NCBI GenBank assembly: GCA_964016885.1
Contig: OZ024750.1
Location: 29,636,001-29,700,000, forward strand
Direction of reading: 5' to 3'
DNA length: 64,000 nt
Source of the DNA: Eledone cirrhosa
Lineage: Eukaryota
Of this stretch, positions 45,938 to 48,590 are shown piece after piece. The notes beneath the pieces were generated by a model. The model did not search any database, was not told the DNA's origin, and worked only from the letters and a program-made list of their open reading frames with translations. Made by a program: the position numbers and the translations under genes. How positions within the stretch are numbered: the stretch's first letter is position 1; each line of letters starts with the position of its first letter.

Positions 45938-46350
45938 AATGTAGGAGGTGAGTTTTATTGTAGTACAATAAAGCAATGCAATGCAGATATCGGATAAGAA
46001 GCACTCTACAGTTTGTAGGACTGGAGTATACATAATATATAAGATCAAAAGATGGTTAAAGGAGTTCCATGTATTTTATTATGCGCATTTCAAAAACAAA
46101 CATCATCATGCAATAATATTTGTGTTTTCATCAGATAAAACAGGAGAACATGATATGAAGGCTAAAAGACACTTGTGGATAGTGCAGTTGATTTAAAACT
46201 GCACTATCCACAAGTGTTTTTTAGCCTTCATATCATGTTCTCCTGTTTTATCTGATGAAAACACAAATATTATTGCATGATGATGTTTGTTTTTGAAATG
46301 CGCATAATAAAATACATGGAACTCCTTTAACCATCTTTTGATCTTATATA
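45938..46350 (-). mobile_element. Foldback element with about 155-bp arms and two intact hammerheads
   Basis: Apex at about 46193. Plus HHR: UUUUAU CUGAUGA(46252-58), long stem II, GAAA(46295-98) UGCGCA UA/AUAAAA. Minus HHR at 46073-46140. Tail with GAGTGC (-) at 46001. Confidence 0.9.
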
Positions 46351-46392
46351 TATATATATATATATATATATATATATATATATATATATATA

Positions 46393-46562
46393 TAACGAAG
46401 AAGTTGTGGTAAGGAACCAGATGGACCATAACGCACCAGAGTGGGTAATAGGAAAATGTATGACCCCGACGGCAGAGCTCAAGCCGTTTCGACGGCTATT
46501 TCTGGACTGAAATAGCCGTCGAAACGGCTTGAGCACTGCCGTCGGGGTCATACATTTTCCTA
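46393..46562 (-). mobile_element. Family D foldback element (hammerhead 3' halves)
   Basis: Palindrome about 46448-46562; GAAACGGCUUGAGC(A/U)CUGCCGUC/GGGGUC. Confidence 0.75.
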
Positions 46563-46602
46563 TATATATATATATATATATATATATATATATATATATA
46601 TA

Positions 46603-46885
46603 TAACCAAATGTTAATAAGTTTCATTGATTACTCAATGAATATAGTTTTACAAAAGATTAAAAGCACTCAACAAGGAAGTTTTCTGGAGTTATTAATAT
46701 TATTCAAAATGACTGCCAAGACTGGAATTGAACCATCAATACAGTTGAGGTATGTCATACATCAATTCATGTATTTTATCTGATGAGGACGTATTGAAAA
46801 AACAGCACAGTACCTCCGAAATATATATAATAAAACATATATTTTGATTATGTGAATGTCTCCATTTATTAATATTTTGAATAAT
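46603..46885. mobile_element. Inverted/permuted HHR element with a plus-strand hammerhead at 46774-46835
   Basis: UUUUAU CUGAUGA(46780-86) GGA C GUAUUG..CAGUAC C UCC GAAA UAUAUA UA/AUAAAA; the left part is the inverted tail of the 62753-63008 family. Confidence 0.85.
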
Positions 46886-47065
46886 ATATATATATATATA
46901 TATATATATATATATATATATATACACAAACATAAATACATAAACGGGGAAAGCTAATAGCGATACTCCGACCATTTTCCAACTCACTCAATAAACTTTA
47001 GGAAATACCGGAGTATATTCCCAATTAAACGTTTATATGAGACATATTGAAAATCTCATATATAT

Positions 47066-47392
47066 ATATAAATATTAATAAAATAGATGTTCTTTTGATC
47101 AATTACATTTTATTATACATATTTCGGATGTACAACAGTACGTCCTCATCAGACAAAATATAATGATACATGACATACCCTGAGATGTTAAATGGTTAAG
47201 ATTTGAAGAGGACGTACTGTTGTACATCCGAAATATGTATAATAAAATGTAATTGATCAAAAGAACATCTATTTTATTAATATTTATATTTTAATATTAA
47301 TAACTCCGGAAAATTATTTCTCCGTAGAGTGCTTCCAATCTACTATAAAACGTATTCTTTGACATAATCATTGAATATCGTTTAACACTTTA
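47066..47392 (+). mobile_element. Foldback HHR element: intact minus hammerhead at 47106-47160, stem-I-truncated plus copy at 47203-47250
   Basis: Minus: UAUUUUGU CUGAUGA GGA C GUAC UGUU GUAC A UCC GAAA UAUGUA UA/AUAAAAUG; tail GAGTGC at 47327. Confidence 0.85.
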
Positions 47393-47679
47393 ATATATAT
47401 ATATATATATATATATATATATATATATATATATATATATATATGGAGAGAGAGTCGAAACGAAATTGTGTGAGAGTGAAGGATAGTCAGAAAGATAAAA
47501 GAGGGGAGAACTAAAATATTGAGAGAAGGGTCATATATATATATATATATATATACTATAAAGTATGTCCATAGAATCATTTGATAATATATATACACCA
47601 TTTCCTCTCCCAATTAGCATAATCAACCACACAAAAACCAATTAAACTAGGCTATAAGAATATATATCTATATATATAT

Positions 47680-47885
47680 GATATTAAATAAAATGAAACT
47701 ATATTTATAAAACCATATTTATTTCGTTATATATATTTCAGGGATATCATATTAACAATATGTTATGCCTTCTTCAGACAAAATACAATATCATAAATAT
47801 ACTCCAAATACTTGTTGAGTGCTTTTATATCAGTTATAAATATTTACTCGTTGTTAACCCAACAATTTAAATATAACTTTCCATG
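47680..47885. mobile_element. HHR element with a minus-strand hammerhead at 47720-47785 joined to a plus-strand tail
   Basis: UAUUUUGU CUGAAGA AGG C AUAACAUAUU..AAUAUGAUAU C CCU GAAA UAUAUA UA/ACGAAAUA; GAGTGC at 47817; same family as 55402-55855. Confidence 0.85.
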
Positions 47886-48086
47886 TATCTATATATATAT
47901 ATATATATATTCTTATAGCCTATAGCTTATGTGTTTTGGCCTTTTAACATATGTTGTAGCTCTGGTTCGTTAGAATCTAGAATCTATTGAGCGCTTGTCA
48001 CACCTCGGAAGTTGTTTTTCGCTAAATTCCAATAGCCGAAATACGATTCTCGCTAATTTATATATATATATATATATATATATATA

Positions 48087-48590
48087 TGTAGGAGGTGAGT
48101 TTTATTGTAGCACAATAAAGCAATGCAAATATCGTATAAGTAGCACTCTACAGTTTGTAGGACTGGAGTATAAATAATTGTTTCTACTTTAGGCACAAGG
48201 CCAGCAATTACCCAGTGCATTACTGGTACTTTATTTTATCGACCCCGTAAGGATGAAAGGCAAAGTCAACCTCGGCGGGATTTGAACTCAGATCGTAAAG
48301 GGACGTAACTATGCTGGAAAGCATGGCGTCCGACCCTCTACCGATACTGCCAATCCACCATCCACTGGAGTATAAATAATATAAGATCAAAAGATGGTTA
48401 AAAGTGAAGTTTTAAATCAACATATGTTGATTTAAAACTTCACTATTCACAAGTGTTTTTTAACCTTCATATCATGTATTCCTATTTTATCTGATGAAAA
48501 CGCAGATATCACCTCATGATGATATTTGTTTTTGAAATGCGCATAATAAAATACTTGGAACACTTTTAACCATCTTTTGATCTTATATTA
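48087..48590. mobile_element. HHR element (family of 45938-46350) with a nested family A SINE; plus hammerhead at 48483-48553
   Basis: UAUUUUAU CUGAUGA(48491-97)..GAAA(48534-37) UGCGCA UA/AUAAAAUA; SINE flanked by 17-bp TSD ACTGGAGTATAAATAAT (48162-78 and 48364-80). Confidence 0.85.

What the first reader, a model, noticed from the sequence alone, without database searches (positions are those of the whole stretch)
45938..48590. Chain of at least seven ribozyme-family elements separated by (TA)n spacers
Within 2.6 kb lie elements at 45938-46350, 46393-46562, 46603-46885, 46932-47060 (tail-like), 47066-47392, 47680-47885, 47910-48058 (tail-like) and 48087-48590, from four or more families. Smaller chains occur at 31025-31975, 33580-34260 and 55402-56640. 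This suggests (TA)n targeting in which each insertion splits or extends the microsatellite and leaves new targets. Transcription of either strand would be cut into fragments and produce long dsRNA hairpins.
Basis: partly seen in the sequence, partly recalled or inferred. Interest (0 to 1): 0.75.

Follow-up and report, generated by a model that had tools for sequence, protein, structure and literature searches.

The report
Penelope-like ribozyme fragments stacked in microsatellites
This is a pile of short, non-coding repeats, several carrying a hammerhead-ribozyme motif, that sit end to end between TA runs; they are likely end pieces of Penelope-like retrotransposons that inserted one after another into the same microsatellite, a largely known habit.

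Summary
The chain is real. Five units carry a complete minimal type I hammerhead motif (6 of 11 window hits, 0 in 100 shuffles). One keeps only the 3' half and three have none. In all 11 two-armed copies in the window, the arms lie head to head, one ending at an internal TA-like site and the other carrying an extra tail (53-97 nt where measured). This is the published anatomy of Penelope-like element (PLE) terminal repeats. 26 of 30 element 3' ends abut (TA)n (background 3%; control SINE 3 of 20), and clustering exceeds independent choice of TA loci. PLE microsatellite bias is already in print. No RT or endonuclease gene was found, so PLE membership rests on anatomy. The claim that transcripts are cut into fragments is not supported: three of six motifs are predicted trapped in hairpins, and such ribozymes are weak. 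The one fresh lead is an inferred integration model: both cut target ends prime on the RNA at two sites and the cDNAs join head to head.

The parts
45939..46351 (.). Unit e1, family A: head-to-head palindrome (arms 46035-46189 and 46197-46351, 7-nt loop) with a 96-nt tail on the left arm; hammerhead cores at 46252 (+) and 46134 (-), loop III GCGC
   Evidence: (154 of 155 arm positions match)
46395..46560 (.). Unit e2, family B: palindrome (arms about 46448-46503 and 46508-46563) centred in the inferred stem II; keeps only the GAAAC/stem III half, no CUGANGA box; 53-nt tail on the left (21 nt shorter than in other copies)
   Evidence: (loose end at 46442)
46605..46883 (.). Unit e3, family C: inverted tail plus about 8 nt of arm (46605-46710), joined to a long tail-less sense arm with a hammerhead core at 46780 (+), loop III ATAT
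46925..47057 (-). Unit e4: tail-like piece with the shared ACTC...GAGT tail motif on the minus strand; no hammerhead; multi-copy
   Evidence: (fold listing)
47058..47392 (.). Unit e5, family C subfamily: palindrome (arms 47058-47151 and 47204-47297, 52-nt spacer belonging to the tail-less arm), 95-nt tail on the right; complete core at 47152 (-), core cut on the + arm
   Evidence: (90 of 94 match), 28 record 20
47445..47532 (.). Unassigned purine-rich spacer; weak inverted likeness (84% over 37 nt) to the right flank 48649-48683
47556..47668 (+).
47680..47889 (.). Unit e6, family F: inverted tail-less arm with core at 47777 (-), joined through a 5-nt microhomology near 47787-47791 to a 94-nt sense tail
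47911..48058 (+). Unit e7: short inverted end plus a tail-like piece with a GCTC...GAGC form of the tail motif; no hammerhead; multi-copy at lower depth
48088..48588 (.). Unit e8, family A: older palindrome (centre 48423/48424), left arm mostly deleted, tail on the left; core at 48491 (+)
48179..48363 (-). Nested SINE-like repeat of an unrelated, very abundant family, flanked by a 17-nt target duplication (48162-48178 and 48364-48380); not ribozyme-bearing
45891..48647 (.). (TA)n spacers at 45891-45938, 46345-46394, 46561-46604, 46884-46924, 47058-47070, 47393-47444, 47533-47555, 47669-47679, 47890-47910, 48059-48087, 48589-48647

Best explanation
The chain is a stack of short non-coding repeats with hammerhead motifs, head-to-head arms and one-sided tails, likely terminal-repeat (pLTR) pieces of several related Penelope-like retrotransposon families that likely inserted one at a time into a (TA)n run, each insertion likely leaving TA on both sides as a new target. 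Shown: motifs, arms, tails, TA-flanked ends, clustering, different ages. Inferred mechanism: a PLE protein supplied in trans cuts both strands in (TA)n; each end primes reverse transcription on uncleaved RNA, one at the tail end and one at the internal TA-like site; the two cDNAs join head to head by microhomology or through stem II. The ribozymes are probably passengers here.
For: 11 descriptor hits in 64 kb against 0 in each of 100 block shuffles. 11 of 11 two-armed copies aligned have exactly one tailed and one tail-less arm. Inverted 5'-truncated copies, an optional tail, hammerheads in pLTRs and microsatellite bias are described for PLEs (PMC8557442; PMC3846280); opposite-strand hammerhead pairs 100-700 bp apart are described (PMC4209133); a purified PLE cuts both strands of AT-rich DNA, starts at two internal sites that bound the tail, and uses uncleaved RNA (PMC11167929). 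26 of 30 3' ends abut (TA)4+, 14 of 18 outside this chain, background 3.1%, control SINE 3 of 20. The 3 of 14 tail ends not at TA end in (GA)n or (CA)n, so the repeat is not fixed by the element. A 12-nt sequence plus (TA)n is duplicated around the insert at 33721-34017 and occurs nowhere else in the window. Arms within a copy match at 91-99% while copies of one family differ by 10-28%. Neighbour order differs among chains.
Against: No RT or GIY-YIG match in 150 of 346 reading frames scanned, and no genome is held, so no family is tied to a PLE gene. Tails are 53-97 nt, not the published 30-40 nt. Element ends were placed by eye, and the 16 tail-less ends lie at an internal TA-like site that could itself seed a repeat. 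No empty site was seen. The window was chosen for the cluster, so the P values are post hoc. The rule that the tail-less arm is the longer rests on 4 of 4 informative copies (chance 1 in 16). Self-priming on an antisense template is the published alternative.
Confidence: 0.75

Rival explanations
1. Same origin, but the palindromes form by fold-back self-priming of one cDNA (or on an antisense RNA), with the tail trimmed from one end by the endonuclease, not by priming from both target ends.
For: Loops are short (0, 3 and 7 nt in e8, the 55.4-kb copy and e1) and a 3-nt inverted match closes the e1 loop. It is the hypothesis of PMC3846280. A contig of organism C covers the e8 centre (record 31), so a palindrome may be native to the family's 5' end.
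Against: In e3 and e6 a long inverted arm is joined to little more than the tail (8 and about 5 nt of overlap), and in e1, e3, e5 and e6 the unpaired spacer belongs to the tail-less arm; simple fold-back cannot template a tail that the first strand lacks.
Confidence: 0.3
2. The families are free-standing non-autonomous elements (SINE-like or retrozyme monomers, about 250-300 nt) that borrow PLE protein, not by-products of autonomous PLEs.
For: The longer arm stops 50-85 nt upstream of the core in 8 of 10 family A, C and F insertions; a solo unit with TA on both sides lies at 62753-63008; none runs into a gene. Retrozymes are reported as pLTR derivatives (bioRxiv 10.64898/2026.07.22.740005).
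Against: No head-to-tail tandem of hammerhead units. A fixed 5' end is equally expected from run-off at the start of a pLTR transcript. A contig of organism B matches the e5 left arm and spacer and then goes on for 112 unlike letters (record 20), which may be further family sequence.
Confidence: 0.3
3. The (TA)n runs are made by the elements (slippage from their TA-like ends or reiterative synthesis), and clustering reflects a tolerant repeat-rich region, not targeting.
For: Short ends lie at internal TA-like sites; the window is very rich in simple repeats.
Against: Tail ends have no templated TA run yet 11 of 14 abut one, and the other 3 abut other microsatellites; a flank-plus-(TA)n duplication exists at 33660/34018; the control SINE in the same region is not clustered at TA (3 of 20 ends, all at one locus).
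Confidence: 0.12
4. The palindromes or the chain are assembly artefacts (fold-back chimeric reads) or one tandem duplication.
For: No laid contig spans the whole stretch; long TA runs break short-read contigs.
Against: Arms differ by 1-4 substitutions, carry one-sided tails at family-fixed sites, recur in five families across the window, and one holds a nested SINE with a target duplication. Units are of different families and ages.
Confidence: 0.03

Closest known systems
Terminal repeats (pLTRs) of endonuclease-bearing Penelope-like elements (Penelope/Poseidon, Neptune, Nematis, Hydra clades)
   Same: Type I hammerhead in a repeat of about 200 nt; inverted 5'-truncated copy joined head to head; optional tail at one end; AT-rich or microsatellite targets (PMC8557442, PMC3846280).
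   Different: No coding part seen; tails 53-97 nt rather than 30-40; several families stacked in one (TA)n run.
Minimal and small-helix-III hammerheads of metazoan PLEs (Cervera and de la Pena 2014, PMC4209133)
   Same: Two-base-pair helix III with palindromic loop; opposite-strand pairs a few hundred bases apart; mostly solo fragments.
   Different: Helix I is longer (6-12 bp); families A and F (e6) close stem II with A-U instead of the conserved G10.1-C11.1.
Poseidon of Anolis carolinensis in vitro (PMC11167929)
   Same: Two internal start sites downstream of the hammerhead bounding the tail; both strands cut at AT-rich DNA; uncleaved RNA as template.
   Different: There the start site is not homologous to the target; here the short end lies at a TA-like site that could pair with it. 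The parts read do not show head-to-head joining of the two products.
Non-LTR retrozymes
   Same: Short non-coding units with a type I hammerhead, derived from pLTRs.
   Different: Defined by head-to-tail tandems; here units are solo or head to head and of mixed families.
L1 twin priming
   Same: Both target ends prime on one RNA, giving an inverted part joined by microhomology, as e3 and e6 look.
   Different: L1 products overlap little; here the tailed arm often repeats most of the other arm.

Membership tests
Penelope-like element pLTR | Hammerhead motif in the terminal repeat | tested here: met
   Complete motif in 5 of 9 units, 3' half in one
Penelope-like element pLTR | Inverted 5'-truncated copy joined head to head | tested here: met
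   e1, e2, e3, e5, e6, e8 and 5 copies elsewhere in the window
Penelope-like element pLTR | Optional 3' tail on one end only | tested here: met
   11 of 11 two-armed copies aligned; length 53-97 nt in 7 measured, longer than the published 30-40
Penelope-like element pLTR | AT-rich or microsatellite target bias | tested here: met
   26 of 30 ends against 3.1% background and 3 of 20 for a control SINE; hand-placed ends
Penelope-like element pLTR | Linked telomerase-like RT and GIY-YIG endonuclease frame | tested here: inconclusive
   No Pfam match above cut-off in the 150 longest of 346 frames; no genome held
Penelope-like element pLTR | Target-site duplication | tested here: inconclusive
   Hidden by (TA)n in the chain; one candidate at 33660/34018
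Type I hammerhead ribozyme | CUGANGA and GAAA boxes, NUH triplet, helices I and II | tested here: met
   6 hits in the span, helix I 6-12 bp, helix II 3-5 bp plus extension
Type I hammerhead ribozyme | Short helix III with palindromic loop (dimer type) | tested here: met
   5 of 6 hits palindromic (GCGC, ATAT); e5 has ATGT
Type I hammerhead ribozyme | G10.1-C11.1 closing pair of helix II | tested here: inconclusive
   G-C in e3 and e5; A-U in e1 (both arms), e6 and e8
Type I hammerhead ribozyme | Match to an Rfam hammerhead model | tested here: not met
   0 at gathering score; none among 55 matches up to E 10
Type I hammerhead ribozyme | Self-cleavage | not testable with these tools
   Folding only
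Non-LTR retrozyme | At least two consecutive head-to-tail units each with a hammerhead | tested here: not met
   No such tandem in the span
MITE / fold-back DNA transposon | Terminal inverted repeats that mirror both ends | tested here: not met
   Ends are unequal by the tail and arms are truncated at the centre

The most novel reading that the evidence does not exclude
These fragments record how PLEs integrate: both ends of a cut (TA)n target prime at two fixed sites on the RNA near its 5' end, both cDNAs run off at the transcript start or stall at hammerhead stem II, and they join head to head. This one rule gives exactly one tail per palindrome, a tail-less arm never shorter than the tailed arm, short loops and family-fixed centres, and with a conserved tail hairpin shared by at least seven families it lets (TA)n runs grow into self-reinforcing multi-family chains.
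Probability: 0.35. Interest if true: 0.6.

Novelty: new member of a known kind. Interest (0 to 1): 0.3.

Why it matters
As a locus it is transposon debris of a known type. Its value is as data: how PLEs form inverted repeats and choose microsatellites is named as unsolved in PMC8557442, and a genome with roughly one such fragment per 3 kb in this window would give thousands of junctions to test priming from both ends against fold-back. It may also explain part of the microsatellite load and supply dsRNA hairpins, neither tested here.

Tried and rejected
Rfam: no hammerhead match; the miRNA-type hits are generic hairpin or TA matches far below gathering score. ORFs of 150 aa or more: 43, none overlapping the span, nearly all simple-repeat translations; Pfam on 150 of 346 frames gave only sub-threshold hits. 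No genome held, so no genome-wide count or empty-site search. Run search: no RNA holder listed, which is no evidence on expression; runs with a small share that I did not lay are not used. Laying 4 runs: tables of joints and loose ends were dominated by the nested SINE and cut short, TA runs were skipped, so no empty-site information; the bin 47453-47541 had no cover, which proves nothing. ARAGORN: 0 genes. Earlier scan findings: three look-ups, nothing. Tail hairpin pairing: one double change (e7), two wobbles and one break among 17 aligned tails, and the predicted folds vary, so the structure is only a hint. Rejected: retrozyme tandem, MITE, single tandem duplication, assembly artefact. Paper searches found no description of this chain or of twin priming in PLEs (listings only for most hits), but the library lacks subscription papers such as Evgen'ev and Arkhipova 2005 and Arkhipova 2006, which I did not see.

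Full report
Setting. The window is AT-rich animal-type DNA crowded with simple repeats, with no credible gene: 43 frames of 150 aa or more are nearly all repeat translations and the 150 longest of 346 higher-complexity frames give no Pfam match above cut-off. The abundant SINE-like repeat resembles an octopod SINE as I recall it; this is from memory and untested. No genome is held.

Observation. Between 45891 and 48647 lie eleven (TA)n runs separating ten segments. BLAST within the window assigns six to families A, B, C and F. Three more (46925-47057, 47556-47668, 47911-48058) have no partner in the window but are repeats: run X1 lays summed contig depth of about 30,000, 160,000 and 2,000-12,000 on their bins, while single listed contigs have depth 3-14 (summed depth is not a copy number). 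One segment (47445-47532) stays unassigned. The last unit holds a nested SINE-like repeat with a perfect 17-nt target duplication.

Ribozyme motifs. A type I hammerhead descriptor finds 11 motifs in the window and 0 in each of 100 block shuffles. Six are in the span: 46252 (+), 46134 (-), 46780 (+), 47152 (-), 47777 (-), 48491 (+). All have a 2-bp helix III; 5 of 6 have a palindromic loop. Rfam does not detect them. Family B keeps only the 3' half: all 3 B copies, and all 3 copies of family D elsewhere, are palindromes centred just upstream of GAAAC, which I infer is stem II.

Anatomy. Aligned in ribozyme sense, each family has two fixed 3' ends: a short end at an internal TA-like site and a long end 53-97 nt further on (7 measured). 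All 11 two-armed copies aligned have one of each, head to head. In the 4 copies where the native upstream sequence is known from other copies (e1, e3, e5, e6) the tail-less arm reaches further 5'; e8 and the 55.4-kb copy are near ties; the B and D copies are uninformative. e3 and e6 are a long inverted arm joined to little more than the tail, e6 through a 5-nt microhomology. Arms of one copy match at 91-99% while copies of one family match at 72-90%, so arms are made anew at each insertion or homogenised later. Arm mismatch runs from 1 of 155 (e1) to 4 of 94 (e5), and e8 has a deletion and a nested insertion, so the units differ in age. Tails of A, B, C, D and F, the two tail-like units and a piece at 56.5 kb share an ACTC...GAGT motif (17 sequences; the 34-kb G sequence fits poorly). 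A pattern built from them gives 11 hits against a shuffle mean of 0.73; this is not independent, but one hit at 38559 lies in a further TA-flanked tailed palindrome not used to build it.

Targeting and clustering. Of 14 tail ends, 11 abut (TA)n and 3 abut (GA)n or (CA)n. With 18 elements in 7 clusters among 48 TA loci, independent choice never gave so few occupied loci in 20,000 trials, and a weight of 1+k gave P 0.0003. Adding 4 looser candidates (22 elements, 10 clusters) and varying the locus threshold (27-48 loci), independent choice gave P at most 0.0008, weight 1+k gave 0.004-0.14 and weight 1+2k gave 0.05-0.47. So self-reinforcement fits and independence does not, but the tests are post hoc, on one window, and a local hot spot would look the same. 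A 16-letter flank-plus-TA string occurs only at 33660 and 34018, on both sides of one insert, which suggests the repeat was there first.

Other samples. Of 23 runs listed, 20 hold part of the stretch; none is on record as RNA. In the 4 laid, families A, B, C and F are present in organisms B and C but at a far lower depth relative to the SINE than in X1 (about 0.1% or less against several percent for most family A, B and F bins); the second organism A sample X4 is in between, so a recent expansion in organism A is only a hint. No empty site could be read.

Transcripts. Because sense arms point outward, read-through RNA makes the antisense arm first. Forcing the hammerhead fold costs 98.8 kcal/mol for either strand of e1 and 54.9 for e5, but 4.9, 1.4 and 4.4 for e3, e6 and e8; even these have predicted stem I probability of 0.03 or less in context. 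PMC4209133 (parts 1-2 of 4 read) found no cleavage by a single minimal motif and low cleavage by dimers. Fragmentation of transcripts is therefore not supported; hairpins are predicted for e1, e2 and e5 if transcribed.

Comparison with print. PMC8557442 (abstract and 12 passages): inverted 5'-truncated copies, 30-40-bp tail at one end, hammerheads in pLTRs, microsatellite bias including (TA)n in Naiads and bias in Neptune; inverted-repeat formation and microsatellite bias named as open. PMC3846280 (parts 1-4 of 5): pLTRs of about 200 bp, solo pLTRs, palindromes at inverted junctions, self-priming hypothesis. PMC11167929 (parts 1-2 of 4; supplements not seen and may bear on the joining step): both strands cut and extended, two internal start sites bound the tail, ribozyme cleavage not needed. 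bioRxiv 10.64898/2026.07.22.740005 (part 1 of 5 and passages; supplements not seen): retrozymes are tandem pLTR derivatives. PMC13282606 (part 1 of 3): 31 recently active PLE families in one octopus. PMC8969392 (passages): inverted pLTRs and short extensions are standard curation features. Searches returned no paper describing such multi-family chains or twin priming in PLEs; most subscription papers are outside the library.

Mechanism and verdict. Shown: motifs, anatomy, TA-flanked ends, clustering, mixed ages. From literature: PLE proteins cut AT-rich DNA on both strands and start at two internal sites. Inferred: PLE origin (0.75), successive insertion into regenerated TA targets (about 0.7), priming from both target ends with head-to-head joining (about 0.4 given PLE origin; fold-back is the main rival). 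The longer arm stops 50-85 nt upstream of the core in 8 of 10 A, C and F insertions, as expected if cDNA runs off a nearby RNA 5' end. It works like a PLE terminal repeat and meets four of six membership features, with the coding link untested for lack of a genome. New member of a known kind; interest 0.3, with a testable lead on PLE integration.

Noticed in passing
window 33613-34081: Insert 33721-34017 with a hammerhead at 33861 (+) begins with a 38-nt perfect inverted copy of its own left flank and is flanked by a duplicated 12-nt sequence plus (TA)n; suggests copying of target DNA during integration.
   Followed up: partly
window 46749, 47179, 55636, 55704, 62787, 34222: A splice-donor-like 8-letter motif lies 27-52 nt upstream of the hammerhead core in family C and F arms (6 of 8 window occurrences); PLEs are reported to keep a 5' intron overlapping the ribozyme. 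No consistent acceptor identified.
   Followed up: partly
window 38485-38858 and 23205-23465: Two more long palindromes (arms about 140 and 120 nt) with the 3' half of a hammerhead but no CUGANGA box; the first is TA-flanked with a tail motif, the second is not at (TA)n.
   Followed up: partly
window 11149-11253: Small TA-flanked palindrome of another family with hammerhead boxes on the minus strand.
   Followed up: partly
window 17024-17047 (-), 63759-63818 (-), about 63150-63190 (-), 38984-39010 (-): Further hammerhead-box-like motifs of other families that did not pass the full descriptor.
   Followed up: no
window 54600-55392: Segment ending in a short hairpin and CTAGT next to the family F tail; resembles a Helitron 3' end (recalled feature, untested).
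   Followed up: no
window 48179-48363 family: The SINE-like repeat has 22 BLAST pieces in the window and, many contigs join its end back to its start (48354-48360 to 48172-48174), suggesting head-to-tail dimers or arrays; a partial tandem lies at 40711-41008.
   Followed up: no
window 14462-15026, 29014-30186, 32276-32829, 39732-40563, 42857-44952: Minisatellites with periods 40, 30, 61, 31 and 77 nt, some 94-98% identical between copies; no hammerhead motif in them.
   Followed up: no
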